Notes under the pieces: generated by a model
The model's input: the letters and a program-made list of their open reading frames with translations, nothing else
Databases searched by the model: none
Told to the model about the DNA's origin: nothing
Shown here: piece after piece, positions 33,670 through 37,863 of the stretch
Position numbering within the stretch: the first letter of the stretch is position 1
Layout of the letters: every line of letters begins with the position of its first letter
Sequence record: ON528723
DNA length: 38,729 bases
DNA from: Shigella phage ESh10
Direction: 5' to 3' (one strand)
Position numbers and translations under genes: made by a program

Positions 33670-33692
33670 AATTAACCCTCACTAAAGGGAGA
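33670..33692 (+). promoter_or_regulatory. T3-type phage RNAP promoter (right-end promoter, phiOR-like)
   Basis: aattaaccctcactaaagggagag. Confidence 0.8.
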
Positions 33693-34704: not shown

Positions 34705-34734
34705 TTGACTTTAAGTTACCTTTAAGGCTATTAT
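34705..34734 (+). promoter_or_regulatory. host sigma70 early promoter (A1-like)
   Basis: TTGACT (34705..34710), 18-nt spacer, TATTAT (34729..34734). Confidence 0.65.
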
Positions 34735-34833
34735 TCATCACGTCAACGGGACAACGGCCTTAAAGCCACTCCCTGAGATACCGGAGTCAACCGGATAAGT
34801 AGACAGCCTGATAAGTCATACGAAAAACAGGCA

Positions 34834-34862
34834 TTGACAACATGAAGTAAACGCAGTAAGAT
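34834..34862 (+). promoter_or_regulatory. host sigma70 early promoter (A2-like)
   Basis: TTGACAacatgaagtaa… -35 at 34834..34839, 17-nt spacer, TAAGAT at 34857..34862; near-identical to T7 A2. Confidence 0.8.
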
Positions 34863-34934
34863 GCACAACATGACGTTAACCACCGCTTCGGTGTCTTCTA
34901 GGCGACTTAAGCGCACCACGGCACATAAAGCGAA

Positions 34935-34963
34935 ACAAAATGGTTGACAACATGAAGTAAGCA
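34935..34963 (+). promoter_or_regulatory. host sigma70 early promoter (A3-like)
   Basis: TTGACAacatgaagtaagcacgg TACGAT; -35 at 34935..34940, -10 at 34958..34963; near-identical to T7 A3. Confidence 0.8.
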
Positions 34964-35184
34964 CGGTACGATGTACCACATGAAAGACACCGAGTGTCGT
35001 AGGTGTAAAAACGCGACATAGTGGATAGATGGCGAAAGCACAAGCGACCACGATAATAAAGAGCTTGTCGCACTTATAACGCAAGTGACGGCTAACACTG
35101 AAATAGCCTCAGCTCGACGAAACTGTAGCCTAAAGTTCTTTAACAATCTGGATAATAGCTCTTGAGTGTACCGTATAAGCGAAT

Positions 35185-35222
35185 AACTCAAGGTCGCACT
35201 GAAAGCGTGGCCTTTATGATAT
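35185..35222 (+). promoter_or_regulatory. RNase III-type processing hairpin upstream of gene 0.3
   Basis: aactcaaggtcgcactgaaagcgtggcctttatgat. Confidence 0.65.
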
Positions 35223-35256
35223 TCACTTAACATGAACTAACATGAGGTAACACCAA

Positions 35257-35715
35257 ATGATTTTCACTAAAGAGCCTGCTAACGTCTTCTATGTACTGGT
35301 GTCAGCATTCCGTTCTAACCTTGATGATGAGGTGAACATGAGCCGCCACCGCCACATGGTGAGCGAATTGCGTGCCGCACCGGGTATCTACGGAGAACTT
35401 GAGTCTACCGATTTGACCGGGTGCTATCGTGAGAGTATCGCACTGGCTCCAACCGAGGAAAAGACCATGCGTTTACTCTGCAAGAACAAAGAGCAGGCAC
35501 TACAGGTAGCTCGCTTAGCTTGCAATGAGTATGAGCAAGATTGCGTACTGGTATACAAATCACAGACTCACACAGCGGGATTGGTGTACGCTAAGGGTAT
35601 CGACGGTTACAAGGCTGAACGTCTGCCGGGTAGCTTCCAAGAAGTGCCCAAAGGCGCACCGCTGCAAGGCTGCTTTACGATTGACGAGTTCGGTCGCCGC
35701 TGGCAGGTGGCCTAA
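35257..35715 (+). CDS. 0.3: S-adenosyl-L-methionine hydrolase (SAMase), anti-restriction protein
   Basis: 152 aa; MIFTKEPANVFYVLVSAFRSNL… recognised as T3 gene 0.3 SAMase, not the T7 Ocr DNA mimic. Confidence 0.9.
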   Translation: MIFTKEPANVFYVLVSAFRSNLDDEVNMSRHRHMVSELRAAPGIYGELESTDLTGCYRESIALAPTEEKTMRLLCKNKEQALQVARLACNEYEQDCVLVYKSQTHTAGLVYAKGIDGYKAERLPGSFQEVPKGAPLQGCFTIDEFGRRWQVA

Positions 35716-35716
35716 C

Positions 35717-35872
35717 ATGAATCGTTATTACATCAACGTACCGGGCTGGGGTGGGTCTCTAACCTGCTACGGATACAACGAACGGGACGCACGGAAACGT
35801 TTTAGAGAACAACACGGATTCGGAAGGCTTCCTAATGGGACGCGCCTATGGCTGGACGCCCGTGATTGGTAA
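35717..35872 (+). CDS. small early protein (51 aa), hypothetical
   Basis: MNRYYINVPGWGG…; ATG 2 nt after the 0.3 stop; same frame as ORF 35525..35872. Confidence 0.5.
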   Translation: MNRYYINVPGWGGSLTCYGYNERDARKRFREQHGFGRLPNGTRLWLDARDW

Positions 35873-35877
35873 GTGAT

Positions 35878-35913
35878 AGACTCAAGGTCGCACTGTATGT
35901 GTGGCCTTTATGA
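35878..35913 (+). promoter_or_regulatory. RNase III-type processing hairpin
   Basis: actcaaggtcgcactgtatgtgtggcctttatgatt. Confidence 0.65.
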
Positions 35914-35939
35914 TTATCACTAAGTATAGGACTAACACC

Positions 35940-36140
35940 ATGAGTAAACTTCTGGCAACATCTAAAATAGAAGGCCAATGCACCGTAACACTGCGTGAGT
36001 ATTACCACGGGTCAATGGGAAGCACCTATATTGTGCGATACGGTAAACAGGTCACACATTGGGTAAACCCGATTTTAGCACAAGAGGATTATCAAGCCTG
36101 TGTGATGCACCAAGCAACATGTGCAGGCTGGAATGATTGA
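35940..36140 (+). CDS. small early protein (66 aa), hypothetical
   Basis: MSKLLATSKIEGQCTVTL…; ORF-track start 35901 lies inside the RNase III hairpin, so 35940 is preferred. Confidence 0.5.
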   Translation: MSKLLATSKIEGQCTVTLREYYHGSMGSTYIVRYGKQVTHWVNPILAQEDYQACVMHQATCAGWND

Positions 36141-36159
36141 CATTACAGGAGGATTGGCA

Positions 36160-36318
36160 ATGGTTATCTTTATCGCTGTCGCACTCTTTGCGGTCGCTGG
36201 CTGGTACTCTGAGTCACGCAAGGCCGCTCGCTATCATCGCAAGATGGTTAAACTCATGGAACACTTGGACGCAGAAGGGCGAGGCCGCGAGGCTATCGAA
36301 CTGGTGAAACACGCATGA
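36160..36318 (+). CDS. small early membrane protein (52 aa), hypothetical
   Basis: ATG after CAGGAGG; single predicted TM helix MVIFIAVALFAVAGW. Confidence 0.45.
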   Translation: MVIFIAVALFAVAGWYSESRKAARYHRKMVKLMEHLDAEGRGREAIELVKHA

Positions 36319-36512
36319 TGATTCTCTTTATCGCACTGGTCTATCTGTGCATCGCAATGTACTTTATGCGAGACTTTAAGCGCGGTCTGGTAATACACAA
36401 GGCAACGCTGAGTTACTTTAAGTGGGGATTCATCCCACGGTTTACGGTTCGTGAACGTAACGGACGCTTTAAGGCCAACAAGGTAGGAGTATTCTACATT
36501 GCTACGCACTAA
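36315..36512 (+). CDS. small early membrane protein (65 aa), hypothetical
   Basis: ATGATGA start/stop overlap with preceding ORF; hydrophobic N-terminus MMILFIALVYLCIAMYF. Confidence 0.5.
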   Translation: MMILFIALVYLCIAMYFMRDFKRGLVIHKATLSYFKWGFIPRFTVRERNGRFKANKVGVFYIATH

Positions 36513-36543
36513 CTCAAAGCACGTAAAGATTGCACTGTATGCG

Positions 36544-36669
36544 ATGGCTTATGGTGCATCGAAACGCAAGGTCAAACGCATCTTAACGAGACACCGCAAG
36601 ATGACCGCACGACAGGCTGCAAGCGCTGTCAAATGGGCTGAATTTACTCTTTACTCTTCTTACAGATAA
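36544..36669 (+). CDS. small basic peptide (41 aa), hypothetical
   Basis: MAYGASKRKVKRILTRHRKMTARQAASAVKWAEFTLYSSYR; no strong SD. Confidence 0.3.
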   Translation: MAYGASKRKVKRILTRHRKMTARQAASAVKWAEFTLYSSYR

Positions 36670-36683
36670 CAGGACACTGAACG

Positions 36684-37793
36684 ATGACTTTCACCGAAGC
36701 ACAAGCCGCACTCGAAGCTATCCGCAACCTACCGATTGAGCGTCTGAACGAGCGCCAGCCCATGCTGGTGGCTCTTGCGGCTGCCATCGTGAACGATGAG
36801 ACCCAAGACGGGCAACTGACGCAGGCAGCAGGAAACACGGCGCTAGAGCACATGGACTACTGGCAGACCCTAGCGGCGCGTATGCGTGATGTTGGTTTCA
36901 TCAAGCTGGGCAATGGTCACTTTAGCGCAGCATATGAGCACGCATTGTTACCGGGCAAGGTCATCAAGGTAGGCTTTAAGAAAGAGGACTCAGGCGCAGC
37001 CTATGCAGCCTTCTGCCGTATGAATCAAGGCCGGGAAGGTATCCCTAAGGTGTATGACATTCAGCGCCATGCTGGTTGTTACACGGTGGTTCTTGATTAT
37101 CTGAATCCGCTTAACTACTGGTGCGATGGTGAGAGTGACAAGATTCGTCACCACTTCAAGGCCGCACGGGAAATCATTGAGGAGGATTGCTTTGATGCTG
37201 CCGAAGAGTACCCAATAAGTGACGGGTTCATTGAGACCTGCAAGGATATCCGCAAGTTCTTCTTAGGCATCGCATCGTTCGACTGCCACAGCGGGAACAT
37301 GATGAAAGACCAGATGGGACGCCTGATTATCACAGACCCGGTATCATTCAGCGCAGACGACAAGTTAAAGCCGGGTGAGTTCCACTGTGACCCGGATGAA
37401 CTCATCGCTGAGATTGAGGCGCTGAGAGCGCAGGAAGCGATTGACCGCTGCAAGGCACGTAAGGCACGCCGTGACCCTAAAGGAGACTTTCAGGTAGCAC
37501 GTAAAGCCCGTGCCAAATGGCGCAGAAAGGCCTCTAAGCGTGAGAAGCGCAACGCTAAGGTACTCGCTAAGATGCGCATGGATGCCAACGAGCAACGTAG
37601 GGCCGAGCCTAGGGCACGTATGTTGTGGGGCGATAAGCACTGGCGCAACGCTTGGGTGCAGCACATGAATGTTGACTTCGCACGGCTAGAACTGTTAGCA
37701 GCCGCACAGATGGCACAGATAGACCACAAGGCTATCGTATGTGGCAAGCCGTTACACATAGACGCATACCTTGACAAGAGACTGCAAGGCTGA
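36684..37793 (+). CDS. 0.7: serine/threonine protein kinase / host transcription shut-off protein
   Basis: 369 aa; T7 gp0.7-like (…LGNGHFSAAY…VIKVGFKKEDSGAAY…FCRM…GIPKVYD…). Confidence 0.9.
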   Translation: MTFTEAQAALEAIRNLPIERLNERQPMLVALAAAIVNDETQDGQLTQAAGNTALEHMDYWQTLAARMRDVGFIKLGNGHFSAAYEHALLPGKVIKVGFKKEDSGAAYAAFCRMNQGREGIPKVYDIQRHAGCYTVVLDYLNPLNYWCDGESDKIRHHFKAAREIIEEDCFDAAEEYPISDGFIETCKDIRKFFLGIASFDCHSGNMMKDQMGRLIITDPVSFSADDKLKPGEFHCDPDELIAEIEALRAQEAIDRCKARKARRDPKGDFQVARKARAKWRRKASKREKRNAKVLAKMRMDANEQRRAEPRARMLWGDKHWRNAWVQHMNVDFARLELLAAAQMAQIDHKAIVCGKPLHIDAYLDKRLQG

Positions 37794-37863
37794 TAGAGTC
37801 TTTTCTTACAGGTCATCATGAGGTGGCCTGAATAGGAACGATTTATCCATAGTGAGGCAAGCA

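What the first reader, a model, noticed from the sequence alone, without database searches (positions are those of the whole stretch)
35717..36669. Block of five small early ORFs of unknown function between 0.3 and 0.7
Five ORFs of 41-66 aa sit here: 35717..35872, 35940..36140, 36160..36318, 36315..36512 and 36544..36669. Two have single predicted transmembrane helices and none has a recognisable domain. In T7 this early region encodes small host-takeover proteins such as FtsZ and MreB inhibitors, so these are the best candidates here for new host-takeover or anti-defence functions.
Basis: inference. Interest (0 to 1): 0.55.

Follow-up and report, generated by a model that had tools for sequence, protein, structure and literature searches.

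The report
Small early genes of T3-like phage
Five tightly packed small genes in the host-transcribed early region of a T3-like phage are real, but they are already catalogued genes of unknown function (they include T3 genes 0.6 and 0.65), and none is related to the T7 proteins that block FtsZ or MreB.

Summary
The window is a permuted T3-like podovirus genome (Teetrevirus; 96-97% identical to Yersinia phage AP5). The block lies between the SAM lyase gene 0.3 and the kinase gene 0.7, as stated. All five ORFs exist.

- ORF2 is phiSG-JL2 gp0.45.
- ORF4 is T3 gp0.6.
- ORF5 is T3 gp0.65. Its start is almost certainly TTG 36499 (56 aa), not ATG 36544.
- ORF1 and ORF3 are annotated "hypothetical" in several phages.

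Four of the five exact proteins are already in NCBI, and each ORF falls in a PHROG family of unknown function.

ORF1, 2, 4 and 5 are under purifying selection (dN/dS about 0.1-0.25). ORF3 shows none.

The ORFs differ in how widely they occur. T3-type 0.6 is nearly universal in kinase-bearing T7-like phages (60 of 76). ORF2 and 0.65 are common accessory genes. ORF1 and ORF3 are rare there, although ORF1 also occurs in unrelated phage families.

None is homologous to T7 gp0.4, gp0.5 or the gp0.6A core. The T7 analogy is positional only. T3-type 0.6 and T7-type 0.6A never co-occur, and they share a 13-residue tail and a DNA junction.

Function remains inferred: small early host-binding proteins, two of them anchored in the membrane. 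This is ordinary and already known as sequence. Interest is modest.

The parts
34705..34972 (+). Three sigma-70-type early promoters (A1, A2, A3 equivalents) that drive class I transcription through the block
   Evidence: Promoter scan gives 10/12 matches at 34705-34734, 34834-34862 and 34944-34972. A2/A3 form a 53-nt direct repeat. A1-A3 are annotated at the same relative positions in T3 and phiSG-JL2.
35176..35227 (+). RNase III-type hairpin R0.3, upstream of gene 0.3
   Evidence: Annotated R0.3 at the homologous place in phiSG-JL2 and T3. Fold -14.3 kcal/mol, z -2.7. It is one copy of a 52-nt direct repeat.
35257..35715 (+). Gene 0.3, S-adenosylmethionine lyase (left flank of the block)
   Evidence: Pfam PF23780, E 5.5e-40. 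90% identical to T3 gp0.3.
35717..35872 (+). ORF1, 51 aa, soluble and basic. Member of phrog_13225. Lies on the same RNase III fragment as 0.3, 1 nt after its stop.
   Evidence: phrog_13225 E 4.5e-25. tblastn finds it in 88 phage records, including Certrevirus myoviruses and a Pseudomonas casjensvirus. Profile search finds 55 clusters, nearly all 45-70 aa stand-alone proteins. dN/dS 0.10-0.17 with a third-position excess. AF2 pLDDT 90 in all five models, beta-beta-alpha-beta.
35872..35921 (+). RNase III-type hairpin (R0.45 of phiSG-JL2; corresponds to R0.5 of T3/T7). It splits the early transcript between ORF1 and ORF2.
   Evidence: Annotated R0.45 in phiSG-JL2. Fold -21.8 kcal/mol, z -4.9, 0 of 200 shuffles. 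83% direct repeat of R0.3.
35940..36140 (+). ORF2 = gp0.45 (phiSG-JL2 nomenclature), 66 aa, soluble, neutral
36160..36318 (+). ORF3, 52 aa: N-terminal hydrophobic anchor plus charged helical tail. Narrow distribution.
   Evidence: phrog_25811 E 8e-40. Only 40 phage records, all at least 90% identical. Strong SD AGGAGGA; its stop overlaps the ORF4 start. The conserved start is ATG 36160, because in L028/L034 an RNase III site lies directly upstream. No purifying selection is detectable.
36315..36512 (+). ORF4 = T3-type gp0.6, 65 aa: N-terminal membrane anchor plus an almost invariant basic C-terminal domain (PRFTVRERNGRFKANKVG.FY.ATH)
   Evidence: 92% identical to T3 gp0.6. phrog_2385. Found in 572 phage records. 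31 invariant columns across 18 diverse sequences. dN/dS 0.09-0.24. Present in 60 of 76 kinase-anchored loci and never together with T7-type 0.6A.
36499..36669 (+). Very basic (net +13).
   Evidence: 98% identical to T3 gp0.65, which is annotated with a UUG start. phrog_10380. Found in 176 phage records, with homology from residue 2-3. SD AGGAG lies 9 nt upstream. Divergent relatives have an ATG one codon upstream. dN/dS about 0.17 against L018.
36684..37793 (+). Gene 0.7, serine/threonine protein kinase (right flank)
   Evidence: phrog_2828 E 1e-176. 89% identical to T3 gp0.7.
37792..37847 (+). RNase III-type hairpin R1 between 0.7 and gene 1
   Evidence: Annotated R1 at the homologous place in T3 and phiSG-JL2. 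Fold -22.1 kcal/mol, z -2.0.

Best explanation
The block is the variable, cassette-like part of the class I early operon of a T3-like phage (Teetrevirus).

Expression (inferred from the signals). As the genome enters, host RNA polymerase transcribes it from promoters A1-A3. RNase III then cuts the transcript at R0.3, R0.45 and R1. This yields one mRNA carrying 0.3 plus ORF1 and a second carrying ORF2-ORF3-0.6-0.65-0.7. The genes are translationally coupled:
- the ORF1 ATG lies 1 nt after the 0.3 stop;
- ORF3 and ORF4 overlap at ATGA;
- ORF4 and ORF5 overlap by 14 nt, and an SD for ORF5 lies inside ORF4.

Products:
- two soluble mini-domains: ORF1 (beta-beta-alpha-beta) and ORF2/gp0.45 (beta-sheet plus helix);
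- two peptides with an N-terminal inner-membrane anchor and basic tails predicted to face the cytoplasm: ORF3 and ORF4/gp0.6;
- one very basic helical peptide: ORF5/gp0.65.

Most likely mode of action (inferred). They act in the first minutes of infection as stoichiometric binders of host components, for host takeover or counter-defence. They are probably dispensable on laboratory hosts but tune fitness on particular hosts.

The five ORFs are not equivalent:
- T3-type gp0.6 is a quasi-core gene. It fills the same slot just upstream of 0.65/0.7 that the unrelated T7 gp0.6A (MreB inhibitor) fills in T7, so it is the best candidate for an envelope or cytoskeleton-directed effector.
- gp0.45 and gp0.65 are common accessory genes.
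- ORF1 is a small module shared by several unrelated phage families.
- ORF3 is a young or fast-evolving lineage-specific gene.

What is shown: the ORFs, their signals, their conservation, selection on four of five, their distribution, and the lack of homology to the T7 effectors. What is inferred: expression timing, membrane topology and any target.
For: - Identity of the phage and of the flanking genes.
- Early-operon signals: promoters; no phage promoter in or directly upstream of the block; RNase III hairpins.
- SD sequences and overlaps.
- Coding evidence: dN/dS 0.1-0.25 with third-position excess for ORF1, 2, 4 and 5; ORF coverage beyond all 1000 shuffles.
- Named orthologues: T3 0.6 and 0.65, phiSG-JL2 0.45.
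- Mosaic distribution.
- ORF4 in 60 of 76 kinase-anchored loci, T7-type 0.6A in 15, both in 0, neither in 1.
- Shared 13-residue tail and ungapped DNA alignment of the 0.6/0.65 junction across T3, KP32-like, Berlinvirus and T7.
- Hydrophobic N-termini followed by basic residues in ORF3 and ORF4.
- T7 precedents: gp0.4 targets FtsZ and gp0.6 targets MreB (PMC5624674). The T7 0.3-0.7 genes are dispensable (PMC11482910; bioRxiv 2021.08.23.457391).
Against: - No functional information exists for any of the five families. There was no hit in Pfam, NCBIfam, PADLOC or PDB sequences. No paper was found.
- None is homologous to a T7 early protein of known target.
- The either/or pattern of the two '0.6' types largely follows phylogeny. 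13 of the 15 T7-type loci have T7-like kinases and only two are clear recombinants, so it is weak evidence for shared function.
- ORF3 shows no purifying selection.
- Expression, processing and topology were not measured.
Confidence: 0.6

Rival explanations
1. ORF4 (T3-type gp0.6), alone or with ORF5, is the functional equivalent of T7 gp0.6A/B. It would be an inhibitor of MreB or the elongasome, here tethered to the inner membrane so that its conserved cytoplasmic domain meets membrane-bound MreB.
For: - It occupies the same slot directly upstream of the 0.65/0.6B ORF and the kinase.
- The two types never co-occur, and 75 of 76 loci have exactly one.
- The C-terminal motif is shared: K.NK[VI]G..Y..TH-stop.
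- The junction DNA aligns without gaps.
- The predicted N-out/C-in anchor would place the conserved domain at the membrane's inner face (inference).
- T7 gp0.6 targets MreB.
Against: - The conserved core of the T7 gp0.6A family (residues 5-40) has no counterpart in ORF4 (probability 0.9%).
- The shared tail lies outside that core and is missing from most T7-type family members, which end at about 45 aa.
- The exclusivity is mostly clade structure.
- No interaction data exist.
Confidence: 0.2
2. One or more of the ORFs, most plausibly the widely shared ORF1 family, is an anti-defence protein that neutralises a bacterial immune system rather than a housekeeping target.
For: - It sits next to two known counter-defence genes: the SAM lyase and the 0.7 kinase (for the T7 kinase, see the PMC13645617 abstract).
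- Presence and absence are mosaic.
- ORF1 homologues occur in arrays of small genes in Certrevirus, Casjensviridae and Xylella phages.
Against: - The fold match is weak, and beta-beta-alpha-beta is a very common small fold.
- None of the five peptides was found in the text of the Silas et al. accessory-gene screen supplements.
- No defence system can be named.
Confidence: 0.2
3. ORF3 is not a functional gene. It would be a fortuitous or very young ORF kept open by low divergence. The block would then hold four real genes.
For: - Polymorphisms fall 6/6/6 over codon positions and omega is about 0.9 in seven sequences.
- It occurs in only 40 records, all at least 90% identical, and in 1 of 76 kinase-anchored loci.
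- The hydrophobic segment is only about 15 residues long.
Against: - It has the strongest SD of the block (AGGAGGA) at ideal spacing.
- An ATGA start-stop overlap couples it to ORF4.
- The ORF is intact and of identical length in all copies, including copies in different upstream contexts.
- Substitutions in the hydrophobic segment are conservative.
- It has its own PHROG family.
Confidence: 0.2
4. ORF5 is not translated on its own. It would be made only as a +1 frameshift extension of ORF4, giving a 'gp0.6B' fusion as annotated in phiYeO3-12 and phiSG-JL2.
For: - The fusion is annotated in phiSG-JL2 and phiYeO3-12.
- The sequence ACGCACT[AG]A at the ORF4 stop is invariant across lineages.
- There is the T7 precedent of a 'possible gene 0.6B'.
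Against: - An SD and a start codon are conserved 14-17 nt before the ORF4 stop in every lineage: TTG in T3-like phages, ATG in KP32-like, Berlinvirus and T7.
- The SD-like element is too far (about 20 nt) from the stop to act as a prfB-type frameshift stimulator (own knowledge of prfB).
- The invariance is equally explained by the two overlapping reading frames.
Confidence: 0.15

Closest known systems
Bacteriophage T3 genes 0.6 and 0.65 (NP_523298, NP_523299); phiYeO3-12 and phiSG-JL2 '0.6A/0.6B'
   Same: ORF4 is 92% identical to T3 gp0.6 and ORF5 is 98% identical to T3 gp0.65. They share the same order, the same 14-nt overlap, the same UUG start and the same position before 0.7.
   Different: Nothing material. 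phiSG-JL2 has a 14-aa tandem duplication in gp0.6A. Some records model a frameshift fusion instead of two genes. No function is known for either protein.
Salmonella phage phiSG-JL2 gp0.45 (ACD75664)
   Same: ORF2 is 97% identical over the full length and lies directly after the RNase III site R0.45.
   Different: T3 itself lacks this gene. phiSG-JL2 also contains ORF1 and ORF3 (100% identical), but they are not annotated there.
T7 gp0.4 (FtsZ inhibitor)
   Same: ORF1 has the same size (51 aa) and the same position immediately after gene 0.3, on the 0.3 mRNA upstream of the RNase III site.
   Different: There is no sequence similarity. T7-type 0.4 is a separate cassette that can co-occur with ORF1 in one locus (L025; also the pattern 'Ocr>T7_0.4>ORF1>ORF2>T3_0.6'). 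ORF1 is basic with a beta-beta-alpha-beta fold.
T7 gp0.6A (MreB inhibitor; labelled PF26851 in the precomputed annotations) and 'possible gene 0.6B'
   Same: Same slot before the kinase. The two types are mutually exclusive. The last 13 residues and the junction DNA are shared, including the SD and start of the downstream overlapping ORF.
   Different: The conserved core of the T7 family (YVMPIH..NG.TVCTPDGFA..R..RLKRE) is absent from ORF4, and ORF4's membrane anchor and PRFTVRERNGRF domain are absent from T7 gp0.6A. The ORF5 family against the T7 0.6B C-part is not significant without a bridging Berlinvirus sequence (E 0.17).
Phage 'accessory regions' rich in counter-defence genes (Silas et al., bioRxiv 10.1101/2023.04.06.535777)
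   Same: A hotspot of small, variable, horizontally exchanged genes next to a known anti-restriction gene.
   Different: None of the five peptides was found in that study's supplementary text. ORF4 is too widespread to count as accessory.

Membership tests
T3 gp0.6 family (phrog_2385) | Full-length sequence similarity: about 65 aa, N-terminal hydrophobic segment, conserved C-terminal PRFTVRERNGRFKANKVG.FY.ATH | tested here: met
   ORF4 is 92% identical to T3 gp0.6 over 65/65 residues. phrog_2385 E 1.7e-29. 31 invariant columns in alignment A3.
T3 gp0.65 family (phrog_10380) | About 55-aa basic protein that starts inside the 3' end of gene 0.6 at a UUG/AUG behind an SD | tested here: met
   ORF5 read from TTG 36499 is 98% identical to T3 gp0.65. 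AGGAG lies 9 nt upstream. Homology in distant relatives starts at residue 2-3.
phiSG-JL2 gp0.45 family (phrog_6500) | 66-aa protein beginning MSKLLATSK, placed after the second early RNase III site | tested here: met
   97% identity. phrog_6500 E 1.1e-44. The hairpin lies directly upstream.
phrog_13225 (ORF1) and phrog_25811 (ORF3), both of unknown function | Profile match over the full length | tested here: met
   E 4.5e-25 and 8.2e-40.
T7 gp0.4 (FtsZ inhibitor) | Sequence homology to T7 gp0.4 | tested here: not met
   BLASTP of ORF1 against T7 gp0.4 gives no hit at E up to 10 in a seven-sequence database. Genuine T7-type 0.4 cassettes are found elsewhere and can sit beside ORF1.
T7 gp0.4 (FtsZ inhibitor) | Binding and inhibition of FtsZ; filamentation on expression | not testable with these tools
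   Requires an experiment.
T7 gp0.5 | Sequence homology to the 47-aa hydrophobic T7 gp0.5 | tested here: not met
   No BLASTP hit of ORF3 or ORF4 to T7 gp0.5. T7-type 0.5 cassettes are detected in other loci.
T7 gp0.6A (MreB inhibitor) | Conserved core, residues 5-40 (YVMPIH..NG.TVCTPDGFA..R..RLKRELR) | tested here: not met
   hhalign of the T3-type family (A3) against the T7-type family (A7): probability 0.9%, E 0.064, 9 columns in the tail only. A3 against T7 gp0.6A alone: 13 columns, probability 4%. The local Pfam copy does not recognise T7 gp0.6A itself, so the Pfam scan says nothing on this point.
T7 gp0.6A (MreB inhibitor) | Genomic slot directly upstream of the overlapping 0.6B/0.65 ORF and the 0.7 kinase | tested here: met
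   Same position. The two types are mutually exclusive in 76 loci (0 with both, 1 with neither), but this is largely clade-structured.
T7 gp0.6A (MreB inhibitor) | Interaction with MreB; loss of rod shape on expression | not testable with these tools
   Requires an experiment.
Class I (early) genes of T7-like phages | Located between host promoters A1-A3 and gene 1, on the + strand, with no phage promoter upstream and with RNase III processing sites | tested here: met
   Promoters at 34705-34972. The nearest T3-type promoter is at 33671 (the right-end promoter) and none follows before the window end. Hairpins are at 35176-35227, 35872-35921 and 37792-37847. Synteny with T3, T7 and phiSG-JL2 annotations.
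Class I (early) genes of T7-like phages | Expression within the first minutes of infection by host RNA polymerase | not testable with these tools
   Requires time-resolved RNA-seq or proteomics.
Anti-CRISPR / small phage inhibitor folds (AcrIE2, T7 Gp2) | Structural similarity strong enough to imply relatedness | tested here: inconclusive
AP2 / integrase arm-type DNA-binding fold | Three- to four-stranded sheet packed on a C-terminal helix, with a basic DNA-binding face | tested here: inconclusive

The most novel reading that the evidence does not exclude
T3-type gp0.6 (ORF4) would be a previously unrecognised, nearly universal early effector of kinase-bearing T7-like phages. It would be a membrane-anchored protein doing the job that the unrelated T7 gp0.6A does in T7 (MreB/elongasome inhibition), or hitting another envelope target.

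The ORF1 family would be a roughly 47-aa portable inhibitor module shared by Autographiviridae, Certrevirus, Casjensviridae and Xylella phages, with a conserved host or defence target.

If this holds, T7's own 0.6A tail and '0.6B' would be a recombination scar of a T3-type 0.6-0.65 module.
Probability: 0.2. Interest if true: 0.55.

Novelty: already known. Interest (0 to 1): 0.3.

Why it matters
The sequence holds nothing new. The same five-gene block exists at 95-96% identity in several GenBank phages, and three of the genes have carried T3/phiSG-JL2 names for about twenty years.

The value lies in setting priorities among the five:
- The T7 FtsZ and MreB inhibitors cannot be used to annotate these ORFs by homology.
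- gp0.6 of the T3 type is the dominant, near-universal occupant of the slot before the kinase in T7-like phages of Klebsiella, Escherichia, Yersinia, Salmonella and others, yet it has no known function.
- ORF1 is a small module that crosses phage family boundaries.

Many of these phages are therapy candidates, so knowing what their first-expressed proteins do to the host would be useful. That needs experiments.

Tried and rejected
- **Domain and sequence libraries.** Pfam, NCBIfam, PADLOC, PDB-sequence and Rfam searches of the ORFs and the region found nothing.
- **Zinc site in ORF2.** I considered a site from C14/C55/H58/C62. It is rejected because these residues vary among homologues.
- **WW-domain-like motif in ORF2.** The PDB hits have E 0.13-1.3, which is not significant, and the AF2 model shows a four-strand-plus-helix fold instead.
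- **Longer ORF3 starting at ATG 36133 or GTG 36121.** This would give a 21-residue transmembrane segment. It is rejected because in L028 and L034 an RNase III site, not coding sequence, precedes the conserved SD and ATG.
- **Longer forms of ORF1 (115 aa) and ORF2 (79 aa) listed by the ORF finder.** Rejected because homology in all families starts at MNRYY/MKRY and MSKLL.
- **Large proteins hit by the ORF1 profile (363-2037 aa).** These are repeat proteins (fungal lectin, HA domain, SpaA) whose scores add up over weak stretches. They are not fusions.
- **Third partial copy of the RNase III core at 36526-36550.** It has no significant structure (z -1.1) and is not conserved in KP32-like relatives. 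It was treated as chance or a relic.
- **hhalign E 4e-9 between the ORF5 family and the T7 0.6B C-part.** Discounted, because the profile contained a T7-type Berlinvirus sequence. Without that sequence E is 0.17.
- **Fisher p of 6e-15 for 0.6 allele exclusivity.** Discounted for phylogenetic non-independence.
- **Cluster artefact.** A 557-aa JGI protein grouped with ORF3 is a clustering artefact.
- **Literature.** Searches for gp0.45, gp0.65 and T3 gp0.6 functions returned nothing relevant. Kiljunen 2005 and Pajunen 2001 are not held.
- **afdb50 fold library.** Unavailable.
Full report
**What the window is.** The 38.7-kb window is a circularly permuted genome of a T3-like podovirus.
- Its first 25 kb are 96.7% identical to Yersinia phage vB_YenP_AP5 and Enterobacter phage E-2.
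- It carries twelve T3-type phage promoters.
- The stretch 35200-36700 is 95-96% identical to Salmonella phage phiSG-JL2, Klebsiella phage Poynor and Pantoea phage F1M1C.
- The gene before the block is the T3-type S-adenosylmethionine lyase (Pfam PF23780, E 5.5e-40).
- The gene after the block is the 0.7 protein kinase (phrog_2828, E 1e-176).

The location 'between 0.3 and 0.7' is therefore correct.

**The observation.** All five ORFs are present at the stated coordinates on the + strand.
- ORFs of at least 40 aa cover 97% of the + strand of the block. None of 1000 dinucleotide shuffles reached this (mean 46%).
- Each ORF has a plausible ribosome-binding site, and the genes are chained. The ORF1 ATG lies 1 nt after the 0.3 stop. 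The ORF3 stop overlaps the ORF4 start (ATGA).

One coordinate needs correcting. ORF5 almost certainly begins at TTG 36499 (56 aa, overlapping ORF4 by 14 nt) and not at ATG 36544.
- The TTG has an AGGAG 9 nt upstream, while the ATG has no SD.
- The T3 record annotates gene 0.65 with a UUG start.
- In phages whose protein is only 60-68% identical, the similarity starts at residue 2-3 of the long form.
- Those phages, and T7 and Berlinvirus, have an ATG one codon upstream behind the same SD.

ORF3 and ORF4 each have an N-terminal hydrophobic segment followed by basic residues, so the 'two transmembrane' statement holds at the level of a hydropathy plot. No Pfam, NCBIfam, PADLOC or PDB-sequence match exists. 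However, every ORF belongs to a PHROG family of unknown function.

**Identity of the genes.**
- ORF2 is gp0.45 of phiSG-JL2 (97%).
- ORF4 is gp0.6 of T3 (92%).
- ORF5 is gp0.65 of T3 (98%).
- ORF1 and ORF3 are 100% identical at the protein level in phiSG-JL2, where they were not annotated, and are called 'hypothetical protein' in Poynor and others.
- Four of the five exact protein sequences are already in NCBI. Examples are Shigella phages ESh10 and CT02, Pantoea phage F1M1C, Enterobacter phage E-4 and Yersinia phage AP5.

As sequence, the block is already known.

**Are they genes?** Pairwise codon comparisons against homologues in 30-odd fetched loci give the following.
- ORF1, ORF2, ORF4 and ORF5: dN/dS of about 0.1-0.25, saturated synonymous sites and a strong third-position excess of differences.
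- ORF3 differs. Only near-identical copies exist (40 records, all at least 90% identical).
- In seven ORF3 sequences the polymorphic sites fall 6/6/6 on the three codon positions, with about 14 nonsynonymous and 5 synonymous changes (omega about 0.9).

ORF3 has the best SD of the block and an intact frame of constant length in every copy, and it is coupled to ORF4. I therefore regard it as probably real. It may be young or fast-evolving. Selection on it is not shown.

**Operon context.**
- Three sigma-70 promoters lie at 34705-34972, matching A1-A3 of T3 and phiSG-JL2.
- No phage promoter lies in or just before the block.
- A 52-nt direct repeat (83%) at 35176-35227 and 35870-35921 corresponds to the annotated RNase III sites R0.3 and R0.45.
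- The second copy folds into a textbook two-stem hairpin with an internal loop (-21.8 kcal/mol, z -4.9).

By analogy with T7 and T3 (established knowledge of class I mRNA processing), the early transcript would be cut into a 0.3+ORF1 mRNA and an ORF2-ORF3-0.6-0.65-0.7 mRNA. This is the same partition as T7's 0.3+0.4 and 0.5-0.6-0.7.

**The five ORFs are not equivalent.** Counts in the 50,697 phage records:

| ORF | Phage records with a homologue |
|---|---|
| ORF4 | 572 |
| ORF5 | 176 |
| ORF2 | 154 |
| ORF1 | 88 |
| ORF3 | 40 |

ORF1 is unusual. Besides T7-like phages, it occurs in 140-155-kb Certrevirus myoviruses of Cronobacter, Pectobacterium and Serratia, and in a Pseudomonas casjensvirus, always among arrays of small hypothetical genes. 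At the fold level it also appears in Xylella phages Sano and Salvo. A profile search of 1.8 billion representatives found 55 clusters, nearly all stand-alone proteins of 45-70 aa.

In 76 usable IMG/VR loci anchored on the kinase gene, the cassette orders are highly mosaic:

| Cassette | Loci (of 76) |
|---|---|
| T3-type 0.6 | 60 |
| T3-type 0.65 | 17 |
| ORF2 | 15 |
| ORF1 | 2 |
| ORF3 | 1 |

T3-type 0.6 combines with either the SAM lyase or Ocr. RNase III sites followed by a conserved SD sit directly at cassette boundaries in other phages, which suggests they act as recombination joints.

**Relation to the T7 inhibitors.** Published work assigns FtsZ inhibition to T7 gp0.4 and MreB inhibition to T7 gp0.6 (PMC5624674). 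The whole T7 0.3-0.7 region is dispensable in the laboratory.
- None of the five ORFs resembles T7 gp0.4 or gp0.5.
- ORF4 shares only its last 13 residues with T7 gp0.6A: KANKVGVFYIATH against KINKIGSGYDRTH (hhalign P 0.009, probability 4%).
- An alignment of the T7 gp0.6A family shows that its conserved core is residues 5-40. Most members end at about 45 aa and lack that tail.
- Profile against profile, the two families are unrelated (probability 0.9%).
- Genuine T7-type 0.4, 0.5, 0.6A and 0.6B cassettes do occur in other SAM-lyase phages. They are mixed with ORF1, ORF2, ORF3 and T3-type 0.6 in various combinations.

One pattern is worth recording. T3-type 0.6 and T7-type 0.6A never occur together, and 75 of 76 loci have exactly one of them.
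- The DNA around the end of '0.6' and the start of the downstream overlapping ORF aligns without gaps across T3-like, KP32-like, Berlinvirus and T7 genomes.
- This is compatible with two alternative alleles of one slot, exchanged at a conserved joint. In that case the T7 0.6A tail and 0.6B would be a relic of a T3-type module.
- The exclusivity mostly follows phylogeny. 13 of the 15 T7-type loci have T7-like kinases and only two are clear recombinants. The nominal Fisher p of 6e-15 greatly overstates the evidence.

**Structure predictions.**

I treat both results as compatible with small binding modules, not as functional assignments.

**Most likely mechanism.** I conclude, with about 0.6 confidence, that these are class I early genes expressed from host promoters in the first minutes of infection. 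Their small products would bind host components.
- Two are soluble mini-domains (ORF1, gp0.45).
- Two are inner-membrane-anchored peptides with cytoplasmic basic tails (ORF3, gp0.6).
- One is a very basic helical peptide (gp0.65).

Shown: the genes, their signals, selection on four of five, their distribution, and their non-homology to the T7 effectors. Inferred: timing, processing, topology and any target.

The most specific testable hypothesis is that T3-type gp0.6 is a membrane-tethered functional analogue of the T7 MreB inhibitor (about 0.2). A counter-defence role for one or more ORFs, particularly ORF1, is equally open (about 0.2).

**Verdict.** The block and all its genes are already catalogued, though uncharacterised. 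Interest is modest (0.3). It rests mainly on gp0.6 as a near-universal early protein with no known function, and on ORF1 as a small module shared across phage families.

Noticed in passing
window 35176-35227 and 35870-35921; L028 about 2440-2500; L034 about 600-660: The two early RNase III sites form a 52-nt direct repeat (83%) that brackets 0.3 plus ORF1. In other phages the same hairpin followed by 'ttacaggaggatt' sits directly before ORF3. The RNase III sites therefore look like the joints at which early-gene cassettes are exchanged.
   Followed up: partly
window 36440-36560; L004 (T7) 1725-1845: T7's gp0.6A tail (KINKIGSGYDRTH) and the start of its 'possible gene 0.6B' align without gaps at the DNA level with the T3-type 0.6/0.65 junction. 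Most members of the T7 gp0.6A family lack this tail. T7 0.6B has an in-frame ATG behind an SD-like AAGATAGG, so it may be an independently initiated ORF and a recombination relic rather than a frameshift product.
   Followed up: partly
L036-L115 (76 kinase-anchored IMG/VR loci): T3-type 0.6 (60 loci) and T7-type 0.6A (15 loci) never co-occur, and only one locus has neither. T3-type 0.6 pairs with either SAM lyase or Ocr. Some loci carry both Ocr and SAM lyase.
   Followed up: partly
It does not fold significantly (z -1.1) and is not conserved in KP32-like relatives.
   Followed up: yes
L001 (phiSG-JL2) 2105-2344: phiSG-JL2 gp0.6A carries a 14-residue tandem duplication (RGLAIHKATLSYFK twice) between the membrane anchor and the conserved C-terminal domain, so this linker tolerates an insertion.
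   Followed up: no
window 36160-36176 and 36318-36334: The first 17 nt of ORF3 and ORF4 are 88% identical (MVIFIA / MILFIA). This may be a trace of a duplicated membrane-anchor segment, or it may be chance similarity of hydrophobic codons.
   Followed up: no
protein P0051 (915 aa) and P0077 (180 aa): A 915-aa protein consists of about 13 tandem repeats of roughly 70 aa ('TPDINIPGFGPYKFNPKEDAKQAQKRFQEVTG') that resemble the ORF1 core motif (I.VPG...Y....E.DA..RF.E..G). P0077 has two tandem ORF1-like domains. Their origin and meaning are unknown.
   Followed up: no
window 34821-34873 and 34931-34983: The A2 and A3 host promoters are a 53-nt direct repeat (77%) spaced 110 nt apart.
   Followed up: no
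L027/L028 (IMGVR_UViG_3300045988_000519): The ORF1 homologue in this contig has no start codon at the usual position (it reads TIAAPSTFPVWCYSMTCYG...). It may be fused to, or initiated within, the upstream gene, or it may be decaying.
   Followed up: no
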